This document shows, in pieces, positions 50,266 through 59,297 of a stretch of 64,000 nucleotides of DNA. Position numbers and translations under genes: made by a program. Source of the stretch: Minisyncoccota bacterium (GTDB taxonomy: Bacteria > Patescibacteriota > Minisyncoccia > 2-02-FULL-40-12 > GWA2-44-9). Every line of letters begins with the position of its first letter. Position 1 is the first letter of the stretch. Under the pieces are notes generated by a model. That model saw only the letters and a list, made by a program, of their open reading frames with translations. It searched no databases and was not told where the DNA came from. The DNA is taken from contig CP129474.1 of NCBI GenBank assembly GCA_030583765.1, positions 265,709-329,708 of the forward strand. The letters are read 5' to 3'.

Positions 50266-50366
50266 AGACAGAAAAAGCGCAGCCCCGCAACACATCGCGG
50301 GGCTTTTTCTTTATTCGCATCCGGCCCAAATATATATCCCCCAGAGGGGGGGGGATATATAACTTG

Positions 50367-50441
50367 CGCGGGCGGCCGGATTCGAACCGGTGACCTCTTC
50401 CGTGACAGGGAAGCGCTCTAAACCAGCTGAGCTACGCCCGC
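50367..50441 (-). tRNA. tRNA-Asp (anticodon GUC)
   Basis: rc reads GCGGGCGTAGCTCAGCTGGTTTAGAGCGCTTCCCTGTCACGGAAGAGGTCACCGGTTCGAATCCGGCCGCCCGCG. Anticodon stem CTTCC/GGAAG, loop CTGTCAC. Confidence 0.85.
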
Positions 50442-51163
50442 AGCGTGCTATCGAATTGCCTGAATATCTTACTTGCTTTCTGGAAAATTTTCAACTTGCG
50501 CGGGAGAAAAAGGGTCTCCCCATCTCTCTTCTTATACATTAAAGCGTAAAGCCCAGCAGAGTCGCGCCAAGAAAAAACAAGGTCAAAAGATCTATTTTTT
50601 TGATATATAAACCCAGATTGCACAGCGCCAGTGGCTCTGAGAGCCGAAAGAAGGGCTAATAAAAAGTCTTTACTCCCCGAAGAAAAGCGTGATGTTATCG
50701 TCCAGCGGTATGCATTGTTCTCTGAGCGCTTATAGCGCCCAAAACTAATACATCCATCGCCATCAAAGTAACCCCTTACGAATGAGGCGAAAAATTTCTT
50801 TGGGATTTTAGGGAGCTGAATAGAGAAGCTTTTATTCGCAACAACTCCTAATTTCTCTAGATCACGCACCCAAGCAACCGACCCTATCTGGACGCGATAT
50901 GCGATCTTCCAACGCACATTCTGTTGGGTACGCCTTACGGGACGAACTGGGTGAGGAAAGCCAATCCTCTTTTTTAACTGCCTCAACAACACAACATCGG
51001 TACTATAGAGAGATACATACCGAGGCGGGCTGCCTTCAACTGCGCCGTCCGCACAGATAAACCCGAGCGCATACGCCATGTCATCACTCCACTTTTTGAA
51101 GAAGTCATCCCATTTATCCATAGTGCATTCTAACCATTTTTGAAAGAAAAGGCCAGCGCCCAT
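50432..51163 (-). CDS. free-standing LAGLIDADG homing endonuclease (two-motif)
   Basis: Two LAGLIDADG motifs: LGFICADGAV and VRGYFDGDGCIS. Low-GC gene. Its stop overlaps the tRNA-Asp 5' end by 10 nt. Confidence 0.7.
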   Translation of the reverse strand: MGAGLFFQKWLECTMDKWDDFFKKWSDDMAYALGFICADGAVEGSPPRYVSLYSTDVVLLRQLKKRIGFPHPVRPVRRTQQNVRWKIAYRVQIGSVAWVRDLEKLGVVANKSFSIQLPKIPKKFFASFVRGYFDGDGCISFGRYKRSENNAYRWTITSRFSSGSKDFLLALLSALRATGAVQSGFIYQKNRSFDLVFSWRDSAGLYALMYKKRDGETLFLPRKLKIFQKASKIFRQFDSTLRA

Positions 51164-51178
51164 CTACACCACCCCGCC

Positions 51179-51775
51179 TTACAAACGAGACACGATGCAG
51201 ATGAAGCGCTGGCGGAAACCAGCGAGAAACTGGTCGTTGGTCAGCACGCGATACCCTTTCTCGCGCGTAGACTCTAGTGGGTCTTGCACAACAACATGTC
51301 CCCCGTCAGCGCCAACAACTACGACGAGGTGCCCGCTCTTTGACCGTGGGTGGAAATCTTTCCACACCGATGCGATCACCGGCCCTTGTGCCAGCGCCTT
51401 GCGCAACAGTTCGAGCGATGCGACGGGACTTTCGGGTGTTTTAGATTGTGGCGCGAAGTCAGCATTATAGCCGTCGAGGCCGTACTGCCGTGCAAGCGAA
51501 ACAAGCCCTGCATGTCGCCACCCAACGCCGGACATGTACGCTCCTATGGCGACCCCCTCAGCGAAGAGATCGTCACAGGTTTCTTTTCGGAGCTCTGGCT
51601 TCCAGAATTCAATAACGCTCTGCAGCGCAGCGATGCCGCACCCTTGCGAGCGCCATGTCTTGTTCGTAAAGTCCGTGACTTGCGAATGCCACGGAACGCG
51701 CCATTCACGACGCGGCGCTCTACGCATCAAGCTTGGAGTGCCAGTAGATACGGACGATCTTCCTTGTGTTGCCAT
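51179..51775 (-). CDS. C39-like (papain-fold) cysteine peptidase domain protein
   Basis: …WRSQGCGIAALQSVIEF… fits the C39 catalytic Cys context, with a downstream His (SGHLVVVVGADGGHVV). Confidence 0.45.
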   Translation of the reverse strand: MATQGRSSVSTGTPSLMRRAPRREWRVPWHSQVTDFTNKTWRSQGCGIAALQSVIEFWKPELRKETCDDLFAEGVAIGAYMSGVGWRHAGLVSLARQYGLDGYNADFAPQSKTPESPVASLELLRKALAQGPVIASVWKDFHPRSKSGHLVVVVGADGGHVVVQDPLESTREKGYRVLTNDQFLAGFRQRFICIVSRL

Positions 51776-52166
51776 AGGTGTAGTGATGCGCGTGCGGAAT
51801 CAGCGTTCCGTTGGAATCGTTGCTGACGGCCTCTTCGCCACCGACAAAGAATCCAGCGTGATCATGCATGGAGCCATCGGTACCAGGACGCGCCTCCCAC
51901 ACGATCACAGCGCCTTCGCGGAGCTCATCGATCAACTGCCAGCCGGAAGCGCGCATGTCGCGCTCAAGACCGCCAACGCCTGCGTGCATCTCGGCGATCA
52001 GCCCGTTCATGAGGAGAACGCCCGACACGAACAGCCCACATGAGCGAGCCCCTCCCCGTACGATGTCTTCCTCGACGCCATCGACTTCAGCGAAGAGCGT
52101 TTGGAACATGTGATTCTCGCCACGAGCCGCGTTGCGGATCATGGCAAGGTAACTTTTGGTACGCAG
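51720..52166 (-). CDS. predicted papain-fold (NlpC/P60- or CHAP-like) cysteine hydrolase
   Basis: Start at MRAMSVKLL. Cys (ARSCGLFVSG) then His (HDHAGFFVGG) then His (IPHAHH) is the order expected for NlpC/P60-CHAP. The longer Arg-rich ORF-track N-extension was rejected. Confidence 0.35.
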   Translation of the reverse strand: MRTKSYLAMIRNAARGENHMFQTLFAEVDGVEEDIVRGGARSCGLFVSGVLLMNGLIAEMHAGVGGLERDMRASGWQLIDELREGAVIVWEARPGTDGSMHDHAGFFVGGEEAVSNDSNGTLIPHAHHYTYGNTRKIVRIYWHSKLDA

Positions 52167-52267
52167 AAGCTTTACACTCATAGCCCGCATAGTATCAGAC
52201 TCCTCACAAGAAGCACAAGGAAAACAAAAGGCCCTCGGTGTGTTGAGGGCCTTGCCACCACCTCTCG

Positions 52268-53194
52268 CTACGGTGTGACGAGAGAGCGCGGGAGAGAACA
52301 CGCGAGCGTTACGCGTATCGGGAGCACGTGCGACACAGCACCCCCTTGCGACGCGGCGCCCATGAAGCGCGCATAGTCCGGCGTTATGCCGGGCCATGCG
52401 GTGCCAGGTTCGGCAAACTGCATGAGCCAGAGCGCGCGACGCTCTGCCGGAATGAGCGAAGGATAGTCCCAGCTTACTCCGGTGCGAGACATGAGCCCCT
52501 CTGCCCGATGCAGATGACCCAGACCAAGCGCATGGACCAGTTCGTGAGCCAGCGTGTGGCTTTCGAAGTACGCGGAGCGCAATTCGATGTAGGCCTCCGT
52601 GATCACCGAGCCTTCGGTGATAGCCCACGCCCACCCAGCAACGTTCTCTGGGATGCGATCATTCACGTACACGTATACGCGAGTCGCATTCGTGGGCATG
52701 GCCTGCTCCGGCCTCCGCTCCACCAGCCTAATCCACGGCACTGCCGGCTGAAGATCTGCGATCGCCTTACTCACCGCATCGGGATCGCGCACGCCGCGCA
52801 GTGGGCTCATGACAGTGATCACGAACTTCTCCGCGACAGGACGCGTGAGGAGCTTCTCACCCTCATCACCCGCCGTGCGGTACCACAGCTCGTAGAGCGT
52901 GGTGAGCTCGTTGTCATCCCCACTCGGGGTGAGTTTGATGACCTCCTCGCCTTCCCACGGCGCGATGCCGAAGTGAGGAAGAAAGCCATCCGCTTGAGCG
53001 ACGAAGAACGAGCCTGGTCGCACAATCGTACGTGAGCCCGCGGCAACGACAATGCCGCTCGGGTCTCCAACCGTTGCGGCGACGCTTCCACCTCCTCCCA
53101 AAGCAGTCGCGTCACGAAACTTCAGAACCGCTTCCTGCGCGAGCGCCGAAGCGGTTGAGAGCACGAACACGGCCGCGATCAAGAAGGGCTTCAT
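52268..53194 (-). CDS. secreted metzincin-type zinc metalloprotease
   Basis: Signal peptide MKPFLIAAVFVLSTASALA, and HELVHALGLGH (HExxHxxGxxH). Confidence 0.65.
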   Translation of the reverse strand: MKPFLIAAVFVLSTASALAQEAVLKFRDATALGGGGSVAATVGDPSGIVVAAGSRTIVRPGSFFVAQADGFLPHFGIAPWEGEEVIKLTPSGDDNELTTLYELWYRTAGDEGEKLLTRPVAEKFVITVMSPLRGVRDPDAVSKAIADLQPAVPWIRLVERRPEQAMPTNATRVYVYVNDRIPENVAGWAWAITEGSVITEAYIELRSAYFESHTLAHELVHALGLGHLHRAEGLMSRTGVSWDYPSLIPAERRALWLMQFAEPGTAWPGITPDYARFMGAASQGGAVSHVLPIRVTLACSLPRSLVTP

Positions 53195-53360
53195 CCCCTG
53201 CCTCCATACTACATATTATGCATTAAAAACAAAGAATTGCAAGAGGCTTATATCTCTCTCGCAAGTCCCGCCGATTTCAATCCCACGCTCTGCGACATCT
53301 GTCCCCAGTAGGGGCCAGTTCTCCCGCCCGCGGTATGCACTACATGCATAGCGCGGGCTT

Positions 53361-54581
53361 TTATTTTTTAATAAATACCCTTCCCTCTCCACTTAAAAAC
53401 TTTTGGTAGGTGCGCATGAGCGTCTCGGTATCCATCCGCTCTGCAATAGCCAAAAGCTCAGAAAACGCAGGTGGCTCATCAAAGAATTTCATGAGTTTCT
53501 GCATCTTTGTGAGAGCGCCATCATGCTCCGCGATAGCACGGCTCGTAAGTCCCTTAAACTGTGATGCGAGCCACGCCACATCTTCATGTGGTATTTGTAC
53601 AGCGAGTTCTTTGATAACGTTTTGTACAACACTGGCGGCCTCTTCTGGATGTTGCGATGGGCCATCTATAAAGAAACAGAAGGCGTTTCCAAATATCTCA
53701 TGGTATGCATTAATTTCATATACAAGCCCACGCTTCGTTCTGAGCTCGTCACGCAACAAAGAAGAATATCCAACGTTAAGGCGGTGGCGTAAAAATTCAA
53801 GCGCAACAAATTCTTCACGCAAGGGCTTTTCTAAAGATGGATACGCCACCATCCAAAACGACATTTGTCCATTCACGGAAATAGATGAGCCACGGTCTGA
53901 GACTGTGACAGGTGGCAACTTTGGAAGAGTGAAGGCTCCTGATATTGGCCATACTTTAAATGCCTCTTCGACTTGTGTCCGCGCTTCATTGGCCGAAATA
54001 CCACCAACAATGAGTAGGGTTGCGTTTTGTGGGACGATCATGTGCCGCCAATATGCAATAAGGTCTTCACGAGATGCCCTTCCTATAGCCTCTAAGCTGC
54101 CGAGAGAATTTAGTGCGGAAGGGTGTCGAGAAAATAATGCTGCTACAGCTGCATCATAAAACATCCTGTGGGTGTTTGCTTGAGATCTCGCGAATTCCTC
54201 GCCAATAACTTTTTTCTCATTTTCAAGCACCGCTGGATCTATCAGTGAATCAGTGACGTCGTCTCGCACAATATTTAGTACAAGAGGAAGGTCATCTCGA
54301 GCTCCCTGCATAACAAAGGTAAGATGAGTAGCTCCTGTATTTGCACTAACAAACGCTCCAATGCGGTCTATCTCCTTTCCAATTGCCATACTTGAAGGAC
54401 GCGCTTTCGTGCCTTTCAAAAGCATGTGCTCAAGTAGGTGCGCGTATCCCTGCTGATCCTCCTGCTCATAGGCGCACCCTGCACGAAACACGAGATTCAT
54501 TGTTACCACTGGCGCATCGGGCTGTTCTAATACGGCAAGTCGCATGCCGTTAGGGAGGGTTGTCCAAGAAAAATCATTCAT
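53361..54581 (-). CDS. M16 (pitrilysin/insulinase) family zinc peptidase
   Basis: Inverted zinc motif HLLEH (GYAHLLEHMLLKGT), plus the M16 N- and C-domains. Confidence 0.8.
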   Translation of the reverse strand: MNDFSWTTLPNGMRLAVLEQPDAPVVTMNLVFRAGCAYEQEDQQGYAHLLEHMLLKGTKARPSSMAIGKEIDRIGAFVSANTGATHLTFVMQGARDDLPLVLNIVRDDVTDSLIDPAVLENEKKVIGEEFARSQANTHRMFYDAAVAALFSRHPSALNSLGSLEAIGRASREDLIAYWRHMIVPQNATLLIVGGISANEARTQVEEAFKVWPISGAFTLPKLPPVTVSDRGSSISVNGQMSFWMVAYPSLEKPLREEFVALEFLRHRLNVGYSSLLRDELRTKRGLVYEINAYHEIFGNAFCFFIDGPSQHPEEAASVVQNVIKELAVQIPHEDVAWLASQFKGLTSRAIAEHDGALTKMQKLMKFFDEPPAFSELLAIAERMDTETLMRTYQKFLSGEGRVFIKK

Positions 54582-54604
54582 TGCTAGATTGCGAACGTTT
54601 GATA

Positions 54605-55078
54605 TTATTGTATGCCTTCTAACCCCATTTTGATACGACGCTTTTCCAGGTTCTTCGGATCCTTCACGGGAAGCATCTTAAGCGTCCCGTCTGATAGGCG
54701 CTGGCGCTGTGTTCCGTAGAGTTGTAGCTCTCCCCGATTGATAAGGACGCGATCCGTAAGGTGCGCTTTTTCGTTTGGTTCAAAGTCACAATACTTAAGG
54801 CACTGCTCTTGGAGTTTGGTATCGTGCATGACGTGCTGCACGAGCAGAAAGAGTGCTTTCATCGCCTCTGCGCCAACCATCTTCTGCGTTGGGTATCCGT
54901 ATTCTTTGATAATCTGACGCACATTCTGGTAGTGAAGTGTGTCTATGGCGTAGATAAGATAGTTCACCAGCTCCTTCCCAGGCTTTGATTGAAGACGCAA
55001 CTCCTGTTCAACCGCCGCCATTTCTAATATGTAGCGCGAGAGCGATTGTTTTTGTTGTACGGTAAGTTTTTTGGGCAT
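54605..55078 (-). CDS. hypothetical protein (157 aa), low GC, inside candidate RiPP cluster
   Basis: No recognisable motif. Located between the ATP-grasp and M16 peptidase genes on the same strand. Confidence 0.4.
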   Translation of the reverse strand: MPKKLTVQQKQSLSRYILEMAAVEQELRLQSKPGKELVNYLIYAIDTLHYQNVRQIIKEYGYPTQKMVGAEAMKALFLLVQHVMHDTKLQEQCLKYCDFEPNEKAHLTDRVLINRGELQLYGTQRQRLSDGTLKMLPVKDPKNLEKRRIKMGLEGIQ

Positions 55079-55131
55079 GTATTGATTATATAAAGAAGTG
55101 GGGTACTAGGCTTTGCCGTTCCCCCATTGTC

Positions 55132-56118
55132 CTACACGAGCAAGTCCGCAATCGCTTCAGCGATTCGGGCCTGCGTCCTTAGCTGCACGAAGTACCATTG
55201 GCCATTCGGATTGATTTCGAGAAAAATGTAGTCGCCACTTGGCGAAACAATCATATCGATACATCCGAACCTTAGGCCAAGCTTTGCCACCAGCTTGAAG
55301 AGACGAGCCTCAACATCACTAGGCAGCGTGACTGAGCTCATCTTTAAATCCGTGTCGTTTAGTCTCGGCTTGCGGCGCCAGTCCACTGCCGTTTCAGGAT
55401 CTACTTGGGAGTCGATTTTTGCAGCGAAGATCTTGTCACCAACAACCGTGATACGAAGTTCGTATGCCTTTTCGACATACCCCTGGAAGATTGCGGGGGC
55501 CTGCTTGATACGATCAATCCCCGCCAGAGCTTCCTCAGAAAGTCTGTTCGTGTACATCACGTTGTTCATGATCATGGCAGGAGCTAGGAGCTTCATTATC
55601 ACACCCCCGCTCTGCTGATAGAAAAACGCGCGCACACGATCGGGGTCCGATGTCACAAGCGTTGGTGGGATCGAAAAACCAAGATCTGTCGCTACCTTTA
55701 GCTGCAGCAGTTTGTTCTCAGCTATGGCTTCTGCCCAGGGATCGTTAACCCACTTCTTGTCTCGAAAAAGCGTCCGGAGCGCATGACGCATCTCCTGGAA
55801 CTGCCTGTTCACCATCTGCCGATACTCACCGGGCTCTAGTAAGAGCAGCTCCTTTGGTAAGTGCGGCTTGAGGTACCAGATTCCCGTGAAGTCGTCGATG
55901 CAGTAGGGCGTCGAGTCGATGACGACATCATACCGAACTCCGGTAGCATTGGCTTGATAGACGAGAAAGTCAGACTCCAGGCACTTGTCCTGCCGAAACA
56001 GAACAACTTTGTTTACACCACGACTCTGAAGAGCTGTCACAACGGATTGGAACGCTTCTACTTCATGGATTCCAGAATTGCCAATTGCAAGTATCATCTC
56101 ACCCTCCTCCTCGCCCAC
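55132..56118 (-). CDS. ATP-grasp ribosomal-peptide maturase, MdnC/MvdD (microviridin/graspetide) family
   Basis: C-terminal half reads …AYELRITVVGDKIFAAKIDSQVDPETAVDWRRKP…RFGCIDMIVSPSGDYIFLEINPNGQWYFVQL…IAEAIADLLV. This is near-colinear with MdnC from memory (ALELRITIVGEQIFTAAINSQ…DWRKEG…YGAIDMIVTPDERYIFLEINPVGEFFWLE…ISQAIAEILVN). Probable start at MILAIGNSG (56097). Confidence 0.8.
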   Translation of the reverse strand: MGEEEGEMILAIGNSGIHEVEAFQSVVTALQSRGVNKVVLFRQDKCLESDFLVYQANATGVRYDVVIDSTPYCIDDFTGIWYLKPHLPKELLLLEPGEYRQMVNRQFQEMRHALRTLFRDKKWVNDPWAEAIAENKLLQLKVATDLGFSIPPTLVTSDPDRVRAFFYQQSGGVIMKLLAPAMIMNNVMYTNRLSEEALAGIDRIKQAPAIFQGYVEKAYELRITVVGDKIFAAKIDSQVDPETAVDWRRKPRLNDTDLKMSSVTLPSDVEARLFKLVAKLGLRFGCIDMIVSPSGDYIFLEINPNGQWYFVQLRTQARIAEAIADLLV

Positions 56119-56151
56119 TACCGTACATTTAAATTATTGATTAGTCAAGCA

Positions 56152-56198
56152 TCTTTTTAAAAAGAGGGGCGCTGAATCCCGTTAAGGAATCAGCGCCC
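56152..56198 (-). terminator. intrinsic terminator/attenuator between precursor gene and ATP-grasp gene
   Basis: 12/13-bp stem GGGCGCTGAATCC/GGAATCAGCGCCC with loop CGTTAA, followed on the minus strand by CUCUUUUUAAAAAG. Confidence 0.45.
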
Positions 56199-56214
56199 AA
56201 AGGCGTGAGGCTTG

Positions 56215-56439
56215 CTACGTCGCGTCGAGAGCGTCGGTGTCGTTCCAGTACCCGGTCGAGGTGCCAGCGAAGACACCTTCACGGTACTCGAAGTAGTCCA
56301 TGATGAACGGCTTGGGGCTGTTGGACGGAAGCTGCTGGGGCCGAGTGGCGGCGAGAACGCTCGCCGGGATCCTCGGTTGCGTCGAAACGGCCTGTGCGAT
56401 TTCCATGAGCCTTACTCCTAACAAATACGGTACTGACAC
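56215..56439 (-). CDS. candidate graspetide precursor peptide
   Basis: 74-aa ORF (shorter if started at MEIAQ) immediately upstream of and co-directional with the ATP-grasp gene. The leader-like segment KPFIMDYFEY is followed by a Thr/Ser/Asp-rich C-terminal core TSTGYWNDTDALDAT. Confidence 0.5.
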   Translation of the reverse strand: MSVPYLLGVRLMEIAQAVSTQPRIPASVLAATRPQQLPSNSPKPFIMDYFEYREGVFAGTSTGYWNDTDALDAT

Positions 56440-56470
56440 TAGAATACTTCTTTCTAATAATTCGTCAAGA
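56430..56470 (-). promoter_or_regulatory. candidate promoter of precursor gene (TTGACG-N16/17-TATTCT)
   Basis: rc of 56463-56468 is ttgacg. There is a weak -10. Confidence 0.25.
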
Positions 56471-56493
56471 ACCTCGGAAGGTCGCGGAGCACA

Positions 56494-56535
56494 TGAAAGA
56501 AAAAGAAAAGCGCCGAAGGGGTGAACCTTCGGCGC
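56494..56535 (-). terminator. rho-independent terminator after lipoprotein metzincin gene
   Basis: 10-bp stem GCGCCGAAGG/CCTTCGGCGC with loop GGTGAA, followed by a U-rich tract on the minus strand. Confidence 0.5.
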
Positions 56536-56607
56536 GGTGGCAAGAACGGGACGGTATCACATCGCCCCGCGATCGCCGGAAAGAACAGAGAGTGGGAACG
56601 GGTGAGG

Positions 56608-57519
56608 CTAGTGGAGCGGGCAGTCGATCTCCACGGTGCTGTGCGCCGTCGAGAGAGCGGTGGTGACGTCACGATCGTTGTCGGGGGCCGAAGTCCCCGG
56701 CCGACGACGGAACATCATGCGCATGACGTAGGCTTCGGTGTTCGTAAACACCGGCTGGAACAAGGCTCCGTTCGAGTGCATCGTATCTCGAGCATCGATT
56801 GAATGCCCCATACCCAGGCCATGACCTGCCTCATGGCAAATCGCAAGCCTCGCCTTCTCAACGCTCGAGAATCGCATACGCGACGAGGAGATGAGATTCC
56901 CTGCGAACGTGTTTCCGGTTATCCCGAAAGCTTGCAGCGATGGGTCGATGAGGAGCGTGAACTGCACGCCGGATCCACCAACCGAAACGCTCGCCCTCTG
57001 GGTCGCAGTCGTCATCTCGCCAGCGCAGGCATTGATCACGTTCATCGCCTGCGCATCGGCGGAGATTTCCGCGGACGGCGCGAGTCCGATGGAGCCCGCC
57101 GCAGGACGGGACAGGCGGTTGCCCGGCGCCCACTGATGATACACCAGTGCGTCGATGTACTCTCCAGACACCACGGTGGTATTCCAGAGGTACACGTTCC
57201 ATGGCGACTCCCCACGATACGCCGTGTTGAAGTCGCGGTGACCGGAAGCAGAGACGTCCACCGCATCACCCGAACGGAGCGACACGGAGACCTCGCCGCT
57301 GGCGTTCGTCGTCACGCGACCTGAAGGGGTCGCGATGGACGCGCCGGCCAACGGCATGTCGTCCCAGCCCGAGAACACTCGGACCGAAACGGTCTGCGCG
57401 CCCGGGGTGGGCGTTGCCGTCGGCCCCGGGGTGGGGCCAGACGGGCTCCCCCCTCCGCCGCACGCGGCGAGGGAGAGGAGGACGAAAGCCACCAGAAGGC
57501 GGCTCATCATCTTCGTCAT
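56608..57519 (-). CDS. lipoprotein metzincin-type zinc metalloprotease
   Basis: Lipobox LLSLAACGGGG, Pro/Thr linker, and HEAGHGLGMGH (HExxHxxGxxH). Confidence 0.65.
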   Translation of the reverse strand: MTKMMSRLLVAFVLLSLAACGGGGSPSGPTPGPTATPTPGAQTVSVRVFSGWDDMPLAGASIATPSGRVTTNASGEVSVSLRSGDAVDVSASGHRDFNTAYRGESPWNVYLWNTTVVSGEYIDALVYHQWAPGNRLSRPAAGSIGLAPSAEISADAQAMNVINACAGEMTTATQRASVSVGGSGVQFTLLIDPSLQAFGITGNTFAGNLISSSRMRFSSVEKARLAICHEAGHGLGMGHSIDARDTMHSNGALFQPVFTNTEAYVMRMMFRRRPGTSAPDNDRDVTTALSTAHSTVEIDCPLH

Positions 57520-57659: not shown

Positions 57660-59297
57660 CTATTGTGGTAGCACTTCCTTCCACTTCGGAAGCGGGAGCG
57701 TTTCTACGGTGATATTCTGACTCGCAGGCGCTGCGGGGCAGGTGTATCCCTCGTTATCTGTAACCTGCATCGTTGCGGTGTATGTCCCCTCTGCAGAGTA
57801 GGCGTGTGAGGTATTGCCAAGGTTCGCGCCGGGGCCAGCGCCCGTGCCGTCACCAAAGTTCCATGTCCACGAAGCGCATGCCTGTGGGTTGCCGCCGCCG
57901 TTGTAGCACACTGCTTGGGAAGCAAACGCTACGTTCTGGTTAATGCGTGGGGTTTGTGGCGTCGCAGTAAACGTTGCACTGGAAGGATATTGGTGTTGTG
58001 GCGAAGACCACGACTGTTGGTTTGCCGCACATCCAGGACCCGTGCAGAGCGACATGTTCGCGTAGCTTGAGACAAGACCGCCAGCGTCCCACGTGCGCAC
58101 GCGGGCGTAATATGTTCTGTTAAATGCTAGTTGGCCCTGCGGAATGCTGTATGACGTTGCAGAAGAGGAAACCTGTCCTGAGTCATGGTTGACACTCGTA
58201 AAGCCGCTGTTGTCATCCACTTGGACTTGGTAGGCGCTCTGGGTATCTCCTGCATCATTGAACGTCCATGAGACAATACCTCCAGGACCAAGGGCGCAGT
58301 AGTCTGGCTCAGTGAGGCGCACACTGCTTACCGTTGGCGCACTATTTGCAGCCACGGTTACCGTAACGCTATCTGCGACACCGTTACAGGTGAGCGTATA
58401 GGTTCGTGTGCTGGTAAGGGCGCCGGTAGATTCACTGCCACTCGTTGGCTTACTCCCCGACCACGCGCCCGATGCCGTGCAGGAAGATGCATTGCTGGCA
58501 CTCCACGAAAGCGTAGCACTTGCACCATTTTGAATGGAACACGAATTTGCATTGTTACACTGAATGTCTACCGTTGTATTCGGAGCATAGGTAAGAGTCC
58601 ACGAAAGCGTCACTGTGCCCTCTGCGCTACCGCGCGTTTGTGTAGCGCCTGGTGAAACACTCTGGAGCGTATAGCCGTTTCCGCTACCCGCAGAGAGCGT
58701 GTAATCTCCTTGGCCGGCGAGATCTCCTTGGTTTGATGCATATGAACTCGTACCAGAAAGCGGGCATTCACTATTCTGGTTGGTGTCTGGGCATGAAACG
58801 CTCCAGGAACCACCGTTAATGGCGTTGCCACTCGTATCTTGCACATTCACTACAACATTCACCCACTTTGTAGTAGGGGTCGGTTCGGGGGTCGGTTCGG
58901 GGGTCGGACTCAAGAGAGGCCCACTAGGCACTGTCTCGGAGCGAAGCTCATATTCCCCTATCTCACTCCAACACTCAGTAACAAAATCATTGTTCCCAGC
59001 AACTAATGCAATGTCATTCCTTGTCAGGGAGGCATTTTGATACAGCTGGTTTGATGCCGCGCTCCCCGTTGGCCACATACTGGAAACCCACACCGTCCAC
59101 TCACCGCCTCCAGAACCAACCTGCGCGCTTAAGTCTACAGTAGAGCCATCATAGCCCGAAAGCCCTTGAAAACAGGACATTGGGCAAAGGTTTTCTTCAA
59201 TACCTACGGAGCAGAGGGCTTCTGCAGGAAGCGGTACTACGAACGTAGCGCTCATCAGGACTACTGCGGAAATAATGAAAAGACGGAATGCGTTCAT
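57660..59297 (-). CDS. secreted surface protein with Ig/PKD-like repeats and TPEPTPEPTP linker
   Basis: 545 aa. Signal peptide, Ser/Thr/Gly/Asn-rich beta-repeat composition, (TPEP)n linker. Confidence 0.5.
   Translation of the reverse strand: MNAFRLFIISAVVLMSATFVVPLPAEALCSVGIEENLCPMSCFQGLSGYDGSTVDLSAQVGSGGGEWTVWVSSMWPTGSAASNQLYQNASLTRNDIALVAGNNDFVTECWSEIGEYELRSETVPSGPLLSPTPEPTPEPTPTTKWVNVVVNVQDTSGNAINGGSWSVSCPDTNQNSECPLSGTSSYASNQGDLAGQGDYTLSAGSGNGYTLQSVSPGATQTRGSAEGTVTLSWTLTYAPNTTVDIQCNNANSCSIQNGASATLSWSASNASSCTASGAWSGSKPTSGSESTGALTSTRTYTLTCNGVADSVTVTVAANSAPTVSSVRLTEPDYCALGPGGIVSWTFNDAGDTQSAYQVQVDDNSGFTSVNHDSGQVSSSATSYSIPQGQLAFNRTYYARVRTWDAGGLVSSYANMSLCTGPGCAANQQSWSSPQHQYPSSATFTATPQTPRINQNVAFASQAVCYNGGGNPQACASWTWNFGDGTGAGPGANLGNTSHAYSAEGTYTATMQVTDNEGYTCPAAPASQNITVETLPLPKWKEVLPQ

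What the first reader, a model, noticed from the sequence alone, without database searches (positions are those of the whole stretch)
50367..57519. Candidate graspetide (microviridin-like) RiPP biosynthetic gene cluster next to tRNA-Asp
The co-directional minus-strand genes are, 5'→3': candidate precursor ORF 56215-56439, an MdnC/MvdD-family ATP-grasp maturase 55132-56118, a low-GC hypothetical 54605-55078, an M16 peptidase 53361-54581, a secreted metzincin 52268-53194, a papain-fold hydrolase 51720-52166, a C39-like peptidase 51179-51775, and a free-standing LAGLIDADG endonuclease 50432-51163 that abuts tRNA-Asp. A lipoprotein metzincin, 56608-57519, is encoded upstream of the precursor. A strong hairpin sits between precursor and maturase, the layout typical of RiPP operons. 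GC content is patchy (low at 50.45-51.2 kb and 54.6-56.1 kb), and the tRNA-adjacent position suggests horizontal acquisition. The maturase C-terminal half is near-colinear with MdnC. ATP-grasp RiPP clusters are barely characterised outside cyanobacteria, Bacteroidetes and Proteobacteria. This peptidase-rich architecture (candidate leader peptidases M16, C39 and metzincin) would be an undescribed variant.
Basis: partly seen in the sequence, partly recalled or inferred. Interest (0 to 1): 0.85.

Follow-up and report, generated by a model that had tools for sequence, protein, structure and literature searches.

The report
Graspetide peptide operon in a CPR bacterium

Summary
The sequence observations are essentially all correct. 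The core interpretation, a graspetide RiPP cluster, is supported.

The real unit is about 3.1 kb (53.3-56.5 kb, minus strand):
- a promoter and a 63-aa precursor gene (ATG at 56406, not the 74-aa ORF)
- a conserved stem-loop
- an MdnB/MdnC-like ATP-grasp ligase
- a DUF6624 protein
- an M16 peptidase, followed by a strong stem-loop

The triad precursor / ATP-grasp / DUF6624 recurs in about 20 loci, mostly in Patescibacteria. These loci share a precursor family with leader PF(I/V)LxFLExxxG and core T(T/S)(S/T)GxWxDxDxxD.

The two metzincins, the "papain-like" ORF, the C39-like gene and the LAGLIDADG gene are not conserved with this unit. They have their own promoter-like and terminator-like signals. 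In a 97%-identical relative, four other genes (including ddl) separate them from the operon.

The kind is already described bioinformatically:
- Makarova 2022: CPR graspetide loci, precursor cluster1865, "cluster 23", which I show to be DUF6624.
- Carter 2026: group 42, DUF6624-associated.

So this is a new member of a known, experimentally untouched kind. One point of extra interest is that a related genome keeps DUF6624 and M16 but lacks the precursor and ligase.

The parts
56441..56468 (-). sigma-70-like promoter candidate (TTGACG-16 nt-TATTCT) upstream of the precursor gene
   Evidence: This is a consensus scan hit. The sequence is conserved in relatives L084 and L081. It is a consensus match only; function is not shown.
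56215..56406 (-). Graspetide precursor gene, 63 aa: MEIAQAVSTQPRIPASVLAATRPQQLPSNSPKPFIMDYFEYREGVFAGTSTGYWNDTDALDAT. The leader motif is P33-FIMDYFEY and G44 is invariant. Candidate donors are T49/S50/T51 and candidate acceptors are D56/D58/D61.
   Evidence: An AGGAG lies 8 nt upstream of the ATG. Relatives carry 63-aa gene calls. A family HMM scores the window ORF at 3.9e-23, and homologues sit directly upstream of the ligase in L001-L014, L016-L018 and L081-L084. Against L081, residues 1-31 show 7 non-synonymous and 2 synonymous changes, whereas residues 32-63 show 1 non-synonymous and 3 synonymous changes.
56158..56198 (-). Stem-loop (13 pairs: a 9-bp stem, a 1x1 internal loop and a 4-bp stem; 56167-56198) followed by a U-run, between the precursor and ligase genes. 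It is probably a leaky terminator or mRNA stabiliser that sets the precursor:enzyme ratio.
   Evidence: Folding gives -25.8 kcal/mol with z = -4.15. The sequence is identical in L084 and L081 and unique in the window. An equivalent perfect hairpin of unrelated sequence is present in 14 of 15 family loci. Its function is inferred.
55132..56097 (-). ATP-grasp graspetide synthetase (321 aa); a GGAGGAGGG ribosome-binding site precedes ATG 56097
   Evidence: NCBIfam gives MvdC 2e-63, SAV_5884 6e-60 and MvdD 4e-57, against RimK 3e-10; all are below the equivalog cut-offs. PDB hits are MdnB 4.5e-42, AMdnB 3.8e-41, MdnC 1.8e-35 and CdnC 3e-33. There are 836 homologues, and the named top hits are mostly Patescibacteria.
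54605..55078 (-). DUF6624 protein (157 aa, no signal peptide). It is the strictly co-conserved accessory protein of this graspetide type and corresponds to 'cluster 23' of Makarova 2022. Its function is unknown.
   Evidence: Pfam PF20329 scores 8e-16. The gene lies directly downstream of the ligase in 16-18 loci. Conserved residues are Q25, R28, D46, P63, H82, Q90, D109-R110, Q119, G122-T123 and R148. The AF2 model has pLDDT 86 and is helical, with no significant solved homologue. The motifs match Makarova Fig. S2D.
53361..54581 (-). M16 (pitrilysin-type) zinc peptidase, 406 aa, cytoplasmic, with HLLEH intact. It lies 23 nt after DUF6624 and is a candidate leader peptidase. The association is specific to this lineage.
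   Evidence: Pfam M16 plus M16_C and PDB M16B relatives support the assignment. M16 follows DUF6624 in the window, L081 and L084. It is otherwise found near the ligase only in L015. In L085 it is present without the ligase.
53326..53358 (-). Strong stem-loop immediately after the M16 stop codon; probable 3' end of the operon
   Evidence: Folding gives -39.6 kcal/mol with z = -5.3. There is no U-run, so terminator function is inferred.
56608..57519 (-). Lipoprotein with an HExxHxxGxxH motif (neighbour; not part of the operon)
   Evidence: A terminator at 56510-56535 lies between it and the precursor. It has no homologue in the 80 related loci. It evolves fast, at 74-80% aa identity between strains.
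52268..53194 (-). Secreted protein with an HExxHxxGxxH motif (neighbour; own transcription unit)
   Evidence: A promoter-like site lies at 53215-53242 and a terminator at 52228-52253. In L084 it is separated from M16 by four genes. It has no homologue in related loci.
51179..52166 (-). Unassigned 148-aa ORF (claimed papain fold, unverified) plus a C39_2-like ORF (neighbours; not part of the operon)
   Evidence: The C39-like gene is called as 118 aa in L084 and is absent from L085.
50432..51163 (-). Free-standing double-motif LAGLIDADG endonuclease gene, low GC. Its last 10 nt overlap the 5' end of tRNA-Asp. It is an insertion specific to this genome.
   Evidence: Pfam LAGLIDADG_3 scores 2e-8. 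The gene is absent from L084 (40 nt at that place) and from L085 (55 nt).
50366..50441 (-). tRNA-Asp (GTC)

Best explanation
The window comes from a Candidatus Paceibacterota (CPR/Patescibacteria) genome. It carries a four-gene graspetide operon on the minus strand at about 53.3-56.5 kb, in the order precursor, ATP-grasp ligase, DUF6624, M16 peptidase.

Shown:
- The ligase is a full-length member of the graspetide-maturase superfamily.
- The 63-aa ORF belongs to a conserved precursor family that always sits just upstream of such ligases.
- DUF6624 is the only other gene consistently linked.
- A stable hairpin always separates precursor and ligase.

Inferred mechanism:
1. The precursor is transcribed from its own promoter. 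The hairpin with its U-tract attenuates read-through or stabilises the short transcript, so precursor message outnumbers enzyme message.
2. The ligase docks on the leader motif PFIMDYFEY. This is the counterpart of microviridin's PFFARFL and matches the 'Phhx(1,2)h' signature of Makarova et al.
3. The ligase uses ATP to acyl-phosphorylate the side chains of D56, D58 and D61. It then closes two or three omega-ester (macrolactone) rings with T49, S50 and T51. The core has no Lys, so no lactam is expected. Ring topology is not predictable from sequence. T49/T50 with D/E56 and D58 form the pairing set conserved across both subfamilies.
4. The cytoplasmic M16 peptidase probably removes the leader, possibly near the invariant G44.
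5. DUF6624 is a cytoplasmic helical protein with a conserved polar constellation (Q, R, D, H, DR, Q, GT, R). It acts either as a partner or tailoring factor of the ligase, or as a self-protection factor.
6. No exporter is encoded. By analogy with characterised graspetides, the product is most likely a protease inhibitor.

The two metzincin-motif proteins, the unassigned 148-aa ORF, the C39-like ORF and the LAGLIDADG gene are neighbours, not cluster members.
For: - Ligase family.
- Precursor family and its fixed position. The same family is Makarova's cluster1865 in Ca. Giovannonibacteria.
- Coding constraint on the C-terminal half of the precursor.
- DUF6624 adjacency in 16-18 of about 21 loci, with no other recurrent gene. 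This agrees with the literature: cluster 23 and DUF6624 in group 42 at 81.8%.
- Hairpin conservation.
- Operon boundaries: a terminator after the upstream lipoprotein gene, a 23-nt DUF6624-M16 spacing, a strong stem-loop after M16, and a separate promoter-like site and terminator for metz1.
- The operon is conserved in L081 and L084.
- Low-GC composition is shared by M16, DUF6624 and the ligase.
Against: - No experimental data exist for any member of this group. Ring formation, leader cleavage site and bioactivity are all inferred.
- The ligase scores below every NCBIfam equivalog cut-off, so it is a separate clade whose chemistry could differ.
- M16 is linked to the ligase only in this lineage and in L015. 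In L085 it sits at the same chromosomal place without precursor or ligase, so it may simply be a resident neighbour.
- DUF6624 has no informative structural relative. It also persists in L085 without the ligase, which does not fit a strictly biosynthetic partner.
- No transporter is present.
- Promoter and terminator calls are consensus matches only.
Confidence: 0.8

Rival explanations
1. First reader's model. The whole 50.4-57.5 kb block is one peptidase-rich graspetide cluster acquired next to tRNA-Asp. M16, the C39-like protein and the metzincins act as alternative leader peptidases.
For: All genes are co-directional. Makarova et al. mention metallopeptidase clusters in several CPR graspetide loci. 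GC content is patchy.
Against: No homologue of either metzincin, the 148-aa ORF, the C39-like protein or the LAGLIDADG protein occurs in the 80 related loci. Terminators and stem-loops with separate promoter-like sites break the block into at least four units. In L084, ddl and three other genes lie between M16 and metz1. metz1, the 148-aa ORF and the C39-like gene are 97% identical to L084, like the core-genome flanks, whereas the operon region is more diverged. The two metzincins are secreted or lipid-anchored, while the ligase and precursor are cytoplasmic. Only the LAGLIDADG gene is variable next to the tRNA.
Confidence: 0.06
2. DUF6624 (and possibly M16) is not biosynthetic. It is a self-protection or 'orphan immunity' and turnover module that can stand alone, as bacteriocin immunity genes do. 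The minimal biosynthetic unit is then precursor plus ligase only.
For: L085 keeps intact DUF6624 (94% aa identity) and M16 (92%) but has no trace of precursor or ligase. These two genes are about 92% nt identical between the window and L085, while the flanks are 77-82%, which suggests recent exchange. In other phyla many family members are secreted lipoproteins (Makarova), which is hard to reconcile with partnering a cytoplasmic ligase. The fold is helical with no enzyme-like match.
Against: DUF6624 sits immediately downstream of the ligase in nearly every locus, as expected for a biosynthetic partner. The CPR versions lack signal peptides. Partner-protein-dependent graspetide ligases are now known: MirC, in Carter 2026. 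L085 is a single case, and only 11 kb of its contig was available, so precursor and ligase could lie elsewhere.
Confidence: 0.25
3. The ATP-grasp is a primary-metabolism or protein-tail ligase (RimK, GshB or LysX-like), and the small upstream ORF is a chance ORF.
For: Pfam alone sees only weak RimK and GSH-S matches, with E around 0.004-0.006. Some sources name homologues 'glutathione synthase/RimK-type ligase'.
Against: The graspetide-maturase models score 50 orders of magnitude better than RimK and cover the full length. The best PDB relatives are all graspetide ligases. The small ORF is conserved in sequence, position and reading frame across divergent loci.
Confidence: 0.02
4. The operon is a decaying remnant in a recombination-scrambled locus and no longer makes a product.
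For: The locus is mosaic. The window's M16 is only 54% identical to that of L084 although the ligases are 98.8% identical. Four genes are missing relative to L084, and precursor plus ligase are absent in L085.
Against: All four ORFs are intact with good ribosome-binding sites. The precursor core and leader motif are unchanged across three strains while synonymous changes accumulate. Promoter and hairpin are conserved.
Confidence: 0.05

Closest known systems
CPR graspetide loci of Makarova et al. 2022 (Biol Direct 17:7, PMC8939145). The closest are the Ca. Giovannonibacteria loci with precursor cluster1865, a 320-aa ATP-grasp and a 'cluster 23' protein.
   Same: The precursor family is the same: cluster1865 reads ...QLPFILGFLEYREGAMAPTTCGIITDIDAYDAA and the window reads ...KPFIMDYFEYREGVFAGTSTGYWNDTDALDAT. 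The gene order precursor, ligase (320-321 aa), cluster 23/DUF6624 protein is the same. The leader signature Phhx(1,2)h is the same. Both come from the same superphylum.
   Different: The Giovannonibacteria loci hold a second ATP-grasp (309 aa, 'Branch 2') a few genes away, whereas the window has one. The window operon adds an M16 peptidase. In that paper the family was represented by three near-identical sequences and was not analysed as a family. Here it is traced through about 20 loci, with invariant positions and a conserved hairpin.
Graspetide group 42 of Carter et al. 2026 (ACS Chem Biol 21:698, PMC13097080). It has 22 BGCs, many from candidate phyla, with DUF6624 in 81.8%. The representative is a Ca. 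Komeilibacteria locus.
   Same: The BGC is a minimal ligase plus DUF6624 set from candidate phyla. The precursor has a P(L/F)IL leader motif and a C-terminal T(T/S)xGT..(D/E)xD core. My loci L014 and L016-L018 match the group-42 representative closely.
   Different: The window belongs to a sister subfamily. The spacer between leader motif and core is short and of fixed length. There is a third conserved Asp (D61). The ligases are only about 37-40% identical to the group-42-like ones. Whether it falls inside group 42 at their network threshold could not be checked, because the stored dataset file is truncated.
Microviridin pathway (MdnA/MdnB/MdnC; PDB 5IG8, 5IG9)
   Same: The closest solved ligase structures are MdnB at 4.5e-42 and MdnC at 1.8e-35. 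The precursor is leader-dependent, with a PFxxxF-type recognition motif just before the core. Crosslinks are side chain to side chain.
   Different: Microviridins use two ligases (ester and amide), the core motif TxKxPSDx(D/E)(D/E) with a Lys lactam, and usually a GNAT and an ABC transporter (established knowledge). The window has one ligase, no Lys in the core, and no GNAT or transporter. It should therefore not be called microviridin-like beyond the enzyme fold.
Single-ligase, ester-only graspetides such as plesiocin (PsnB, PDB 7DRM) and thuringinin
   Same: One ATP-grasp installs several Thr/Ser-Asp/Glu macrolactones in a short core. Adjacent donors (TT) precede a cluster of acceptors, which suggests nested 'hairpin' rings (background).
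   Different: PsnB is a distant relative, at E 1e-7 against 1e-42 for MdnB. Plesiocin has repeated cores, whereas this precursor has a single core at the extreme C-terminus. No DUF6624 is involved.
M16 peptidases in other RiPP pathways (PqqF/PqqL for PQQ; AlbE/AlbF for subtilosin). This comparison comes from general knowledge and was not tested here.
   Same: A pitrilysin-type zinc peptidase is encoded in the operon of a ribosomal peptide. The window protein gives weak NCBIfam hits to PqqF (1e-7) and PDB hits to PqqL (1e-7).
   Different: Similarity is no greater than to any generic M16B protease. Linkage to the ligase is lineage-specific, and the gene also occurs at this locus without the ligase (L085).

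Membership tests
Graspetide (omega-ester/amide RiPP) biosynthetic gene cluster | ATP-grasp ligase of the MdnB/MdnC/MvdD-type maturase superfamily with the pre-ATP-grasp leader-binding region | tested here: met
   There are full-length matches to TIGR04185, TIGR04187 and TIGR04184 (2e-63 to 4e-57), against RimK at 3e-10. The best PDB relatives are MdnB, AMdnB, MdnC and CdnC. Many homologues carry PF21068.
Graspetide (omega-ester/amide RiPP) biosynthetic gene cluster | Adjacent small precursor gene with a conserved leader recognition motif | tested here: met
   The 63-aa ORF lies 117 nt upstream of the ligase. Its motif P-F-I-M-D-Y-F-E aligns with PF(I/V)LxFLE in 16 or more homologues and fits Phhx(1,2)h.
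Graspetide (omega-ester/amide RiPP) biosynthetic gene cluster | Core with conserved donor (Thr/Ser/Lys) and acceptor (Asp/Glu) residues | tested here: met
   T49 and T/S50 are conserved or nearly invariant, and D58 and D61 are invariant in the main subfamily. S/T/C51 and D/N56 are also conserved.
Graspetide (omega-ester/amide RiPP) biosynthetic gene cluster | ATP-dependent dehydrative macrocyclisation (-18 Da per ring) demonstrated | not testable with these tools
   This needs co-expression or an in vitro assay with mass spectrometry.
Microviridins (graspetide group 1) | Core motif TxKxPSDx(D/E)(D/E) with a Lys for the lactam | tested here: not met
   The core is AGTSTGYWNDTDALDAT, with no Lys and no PSD.
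Microviridins (graspetide group 1) | Two dedicated ATP-grasp ligases (ester and amide), usually with a GNAT and an ABC transporter | tested here: not met
   A ligase HMM gives one hit in the 64-kb window. No GNAT or transporter lies in the operon.
CPR graspetide type 'precursor / ATP-grasp / cluster 23 (DUF6624)' (Makarova 2022; sister of Carter 2026 group 42) | DUF6624 / cluster 23 protein encoded next to the ligase | tested here: met
   PF20329 scores 8e-16, and the gene starts 53 nt downstream of the ligase. The same arrangement occurs in 16-18 related loci. The motifs are identical to Makarova Fig. S2D sequences.
CPR graspetide type 'precursor / ATP-grasp / cluster 23 (DUF6624)' (Makarova 2022; sister of Carter 2026 group 42) | Precursor homologous to cluster1865 or the group-42 consensus | tested here: met
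   The alignment with cluster1865 has no gaps from the PFIL motif to the C-terminus. Relatedness to the group-42 representative is weaker: the subfamily-2 loci score 1e-4 with the family HMM.
CPR graspetide type 'precursor / ATP-grasp / cluster 23 (DUF6624)' (Makarova 2022; sister of Carter 2026 group 42) | Falls in the same sequence-similarity-network group (alignment score 70) as the group 42 ligases | not tested
   The network data were not available and the stored supplementary dataset is truncated. The ligase is 37-40% identical to group-42-like ligases.
Metzincin metallopeptidases (for 52268-53194 and 56608-57519) | HExxHxxGxxH zinc site plus a Met-turn within a recognisable metzincin catalytic domain | tested here: inconclusive
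   The motif is present in both proteins (sequence). Pfam Peptidase_M10 matches only the motif region, at E about 0.01 and below cut-off. The fold was not modelled.
Papain-fold / NlpC-P60 hydrolase (for 51720-52166) | Recognisable Cys-His catalytic core or a family HMM match | tested here: inconclusive
   There are no Pfam or NCBIfam hits even at E 5. The PDB NlpC/P60 hit has E 0.75. The AF2 single-sequence model has pLDDT 39.8 and is unusable.

The most novel reading that the evidence does not exclude
DUF6624 is the third most common graspetide-associated protein family and has no known function. The novel reading is that DUF6624, here together with the M16 peptidase, forms a self-standing module that can outlive loss of the synthetase. 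It would be swapped between related Paceibacterota by recombination, which suggests an immunity, detoxification or processing role rather than a ligase cofactor. The locus would then behave like a bacteriocin/immunity hot spot in an episymbiotic CPR bacterium, and the graspetide would be a weapon or signal used among CPR cells or against their hosts.
Probability: 0.2. Interest if true: 0.6.

Novelty: new member of a known kind. Interest (0 to 1): 0.4.

Why it matters
Graspetides are compact, protease-resistant multicyclic peptides, and the characterised ones are often potent protease inhibitors. None from the candidate phyla radiation has been made or tested, and the role of DUF6624 is an acknowledged open question (Makarova 2022; Carter 2026).

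This locus offers a very small test case for asking what DUF6624 does:
- a 63-aa precursor, with relatives as short as 32 aa
- one ligase
- one DUF6624 protein
- one M16 peptidase

Natural comparators are also available: strains with divergent M16 alleles, and a relative that lacks precursor and ligase.

The finding does not change what is known about RiPP genomics. Its value is as a well-delimited candidate for experiment and as a correction of the over-extended cluster boundaries.

Tried and rejected
1. Searches with the precursor alone found almost nothing. The word-indexed search gave 1 hit. phmmer against 1.8 billion representatives gave 2 true hits plus 2 spurious repeat proteins, P0129 and P0130. 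Small ORFs are rarely called, so the family had to be recovered by translating the DNA upstream of ligase homologues.
3. The single-sequence AF2 model of the 'papain-like' ORF failed, with pLDDT 39.8.
4. I tested whether the 141-142-aa protein that follows the ligase in L003 and L006 is a cryptic DUF6624. hhalign gave a probability of 1.4%, so this was rejected.
5. I tested whether the M16 peptidase is a general partner of this ligase clade. It was found only in the window lineage and in L015, so it was rejected as a family feature.
6. I tested whether group 27 of Carter et al. (candidate phyla) is the matching group. Its precursors (Angelobacter, GG-type leaders) are unrelated, so this was rejected.
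7. PADLOC defence models gave no hits. Rfam found only the tRNA.
8. A tRNA-Asp-anchored genomic island was rejected. Synteny with L084 and L085 shows that only the LAGLIDADG gene is inserted there.

Full report
**Origin and observation check**

The window's ATP-grasp protein is 100% identical to a protein annotated [quoted passage not shown], on a 615-kb contig. The window therefore comes from a CPR/Patescibacteria genome.

Profile searches confirm the following:
- LAGLIDADG_3, E 2e-8
- Peptidase_C39_2, E 2.9e-9
- M16 plus M16_C, about 1e-22 to 1e-23, with an intact HLLEH site
- DUF6624 (PF20329), E 8e-16, for the "low-GC hypothetical"

The two "metzincins" have no significant family hit. Pfam M10 scores E about 0.01 over the zinc motif only. 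Both do carry HExxHxxGxxH, plus a signal peptide and a lipobox respectively, read directly from the sequence.

The "papain-fold" claim for 51720-52166 could not be verified.

GC patchiness is real. The window mean is 53.5% with a 1-kb SD of 2.9%. M16 is 46.4%, DUF6624 47.9%, LAGLIDADG 45.8%, and the metzincins and precursor 62-64%.

**The ligase**

The 321-aa protein (ATG 56097, preceded by GGAGGAGGG) matches three NCBIfam graspetide-maturase models over their full length:
- MvdC, 2e-63
- SAV_5884 type, 6e-60
- MvdD, 4e-57

RimK reaches only 3e-10 and glutathione synthase about 1e-3. All scores are below the equivalog cut-offs, so this is a separate clade within the superfamily.

Its best solved relatives are all graspetide ligases:
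- MdnB (5IG8), 4.5e-42
- AMdnB, 3.8e-41
- MdnC (5IG9), 1.8e-35
- CdnC, 3e-33
- PsnB, 1e-7

**The precursor**

AGGAG lies 8 nt upstream of ATG 56406, which gives a 63-aa product. Gene callers on three related contigs also aa.

Protein-database searches with the peptide are nearly empty. I therefore translated the DNA upstream of ligase homologues in 80 genome loci. I built an HMM from 16 such peptides. It finds one small ORF directly upstream of the ligase in L001-L014, L016-L018 and L081-L084.

From the leader motif to the C-terminus the alignment has no gaps: P-F-I-L-x-F-L-E-x-x-x-G-x-x-x-x-T-(T/S)-(S/T/C)-G-x-(W/Y/H)-x-D-x-D-x-x-D-x-x.

In window numbering:
- P33, G44, G52, D58 and D61 are invariant, and T49 nearly so (Ala in L011).
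- Position 50 is always T or S.
- Position 56 is D, except N in L008.

A second subfamily (L014, L016-L018) has PLILDF, a longer spacer and the core GT(S/T)xGT(H/Y/W)x(D/E)xD.

Between the window and the 88%-related L081, residues 1-31 carry 7 non-synonymous and 2 synonymous changes. Residues 32-63 carry 1 non-synonymous and 3 synonymous changes. This is the pattern expected for a recognition motif plus core under purifying selection. There is one copy each of precursor, ligase and DUF6624 in the window.

**What belongs to the cluster**

I ran BLASTP with all window proteins against every ORF of the 80 loci, then clustered the neighbours of 21 loci.
- Only DUF6624 recurs, immediately downstream of the ligase in 16-18 loci.
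- M16 appears in just one other locus, L015 (23% identity, HMVEH, two genes downstream).
- The two metzincins, the 148-aa ORF, the C39-like protein, the LAGLIDADG protein and the PKD protein have no counterpart anywhere.

Signals along the DNA agree with this:
- A canonical terminator at 56510-56535 ends the lipoprotein gene.
- A promoter-like site at 56441-56468 precedes the precursor.
- The ligase-DUF6624 and DUF6624-M16 spacings are 53 and 23 nt.
- A very stable stem-loop at 53326-53358 (-39.6 kcal/mol, z = -5.3) follows the M16 stop.
- metz1 has its own promoter-like site (53215-53242) and terminator (52228-52253).

**The hairpin**

The stem-loop at 56167-56198 (-25.8 kcal/mol, z = -4.15) is followed by a U-run. 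It is identical in L081 and L084 and unique in the window.

Folding the precursor-ligase spacer of 15 family loci gives a perfect 7-16-bp hairpin in 14 of them. The sequences are unrelated, and many are followed by U-runs. Its function, either attenuation or transcript stabilisation that raises the precursor:enzyme ratio, is inferred.

**Comparison with close relatives**

L084 has a 98.8% identical ligase and flanks 96-98% identical at the nucleotide level. L081 has an 88% identical ligase. Both share the order lipoprotein, precursor, ligase, DUF6624, M16.

L084 then has four extra genes before metz1: three unknowns of 182, 89 and 231 aa, and D-Ala-D-Ala ligase. The window has no copy of these in its 64 kb.

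The window's M16 is only 54% identical to the M16 of L084 and L081. Nucleotide similarity stops inside the gene at 54207.

L085 is a metagenomic relative with about 80% identical flanks. Its M16 is 92% and its DUF6624 94% identical to the window's. Its gene order is lipoprotein, M16, 182 aa, 92 aa, DUF6624, metz1. It shows no trace of precursor or ligase.

Three conclusions follow:
- The precursor-ligase pair is variably present at this locus.
- The M16 and DUF6624 alleles have been exchanged between lineages more recently than the flanks diverged.
- The locus is a recombination mosaic.

By contrast, metz1, the 148-aa ORF and the C39-like gene behave like core flank, at 97% identity to L084. 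The LAGLIDADG gene is an insertion found only in the window genome. L084 has 40 nt and L085 has 55 nt at that place. The tRNA is therefore a landmark for the homing-endonuclease gene, not for the RiPP operon.

**DUF6624**

The CPR versions lack signal peptides. They conserve Q25, R28, D46, P63, H82, Q90, D109-R110, Q119, G122-T123 and R148.

**Mechanism (inferred)**

1. The leader motif PFIMDYFEY docks on the ligase, as PFFARFL does in the microviridin system.
2. The ligase activates the D56, D58 and D61 carboxylates with ATP.
3. It esterifies them with T49, S50 and T51, giving two or three macrolactones. The core has no Lys, so no lactam is expected.
4. T49/T50 with D/E56 and D58 are conserved in both subfamilies, so at least two rings are expected. 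The topology cannot be derived from sequence.
5. M16 is the most plausible leader peptidase in this lineage. The role of DUF6624 is open: partner, tailoring enzyme or immunity.
6. No exporter is encoded.

**Comparison with what is known**

Makarova et al. 2022 (PMC8939145) already reported graspetide loci in CPR bacteria. They described the leader signature Phhx(1,2)h, cores of the type TxxxTx(6-10)Dx(1-4)D, occasional metallopeptidases and an ever-present uncharacterised "cluster 23" protein.

Their precursor cluster1865 from Ca. Giovannonibacteria reads ...LPFILGFLEYREGAMAPTTCGIITDIDAYDAA. It is the same family as the window's precursor and sits next to a 320-aa ligase. The protein following that ligase, shown in their Fig. 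S2D, carries the GYP...LVQH...CDF...DRVL...QLYGTQF motifs of DUF6624. Cluster 23 is therefore DUF6624.

Carter et al. 2026 (PMC13097080) list 43 graspetide groups. Group 42 has 22 BGCs, many from candidate phyla, with DUF6624 in 81.8%. Its representative is a Komeilibacteria precursor, ...KPLILDRLRQPIEDIYKGGEKAMEGFTTHGTPNDPDSGGTD. [quoted passage not shown] That representative matches my second subfamily, so the window belongs to the sister subfamily.

No member of either subfamily has been characterised experimentally. A full-text search for DUF6624 returns only that paper.

**Verdict**

The cluster is four genes, not nine. "Microviridin-like" and "undescribed peptidase-rich variant" are not supported. 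This is a new member of a bioinformatically known but experimentally unexplored kind.

Three results are new here:
- The family-wide precursor alignment and the conserved hairpin.
- The explicit equation of cluster 23 with DUF6624.
- The strain-level mosaic, in which DUF6624 and M16 persist without the ligase.

The last point keeps open a modestly novel reading of DUF6624 as a stand-alone, possibly protective, module.

Noticed in passing
window 50432-51163 (-), next to tRNA-Asp 50366-50441: A free-standing double-motif LAGLIDADG endonuclease gene (45.8% GC) overlaps the 5' end of tRNA-Asp by 10 nt. The gene is absent from two related genomes, which have only 40 nt (L084) and 55 nt (L085) at that place. 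It is therefore a presence/absence polymorphism of a homing-endonuclease-like gene in an intergenic site of a CPR genome.
   Followed up: partly
window 53251-54207 (M16 3' part and downstream) vs L084 11891-15513: This is a recombination mosaic. The window's M16 is 54% aa identical to the M16 of L084 and L081, although the adjacent ligase is 98.8% identical to that of L084. The same window M16 is 92% identical to the M16 of the otherwise more distant L085. Four genes present in L084 (182, 89 and 231 aa unknowns, plus D-Ala-D-Ala ligase) have no copy anywhere in the 64-kb window.
   Followed up: partly
L085 3805-6946 (metagenome contig ERZ1292623.134-Hain-H51...): A related Paceibacterota locus has M16 and DUF6624 intact (92% and 94% aa identity to the window) but in a different order and without any precursor or ATP-grasp gene. 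These two genes are about 92% nt identical to the window, while the flanks are 77-82%.
   Followed up: partly
L007 3446-5596, L013 8867-11689, L016 3452-5608, L050, L075: A 7TM-GAF-HisKA-HATPase histidine kinase lies next to the precursor/ligase/DUF6624 module in 5 of 21 family loci. This may be shared synteny or a regulatory link, and was not resolved.
   Followed up: no
L002 5839-5934, L003 1447-1542, L006 5848-5943: Some precursors of the family appear to start at a Met directly before the PFIL motif, which gives peptides of only 32 aa with a leader of about 16 residues. That is unusually short for a leader-dependent RiPP. The start codons were not verified.
   Followed up: no
L015 66-212, 321-1226, 1314-2318, 2821-4059: In this locus an IS-type transposase-like ORF (301 aa, opposite strand) sits between the precursor-like ORF and the ligase. 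DUF6624 is missing, and an M16 peptidase lies two genes downstream of the ligase.
   Followed up: no
window 56608-57519 and 57660-59297: The lipoprotein with the HExxH motif is 74-80% aa identical between strains and the PKD-domain surface protein 81-84%. Housekeeping flanks are about 97% nt identical. These cell-surface proteins are therefore evolving fast beside the operon.
   Followed up: no
window 51179-51775 vs L084 17229-17585 and L085: The C39_2-like gene is 198 aa in the window, is called as only 118 aa in the 97%-identical L084, and is absent from L085 except for its last approximately 40 nt. L084 also has an extra segment of about 590 nt just beyond tRNA-Asp.
   Followed up: no
L012-L015 record titles: Several loci carrying this Patescibacteria-type module are labelled 'uncultured Gammaproteobacteria bacterium' in automated third-party (TPA_asm) MAG assemblies. 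L010 is a 6.25-Mb Chitinophagaceae chromosome with the same precursor family and DUF6624 on the opposite strand. This points to either mis-binning or real spread outside CPR.
   Followed up: no
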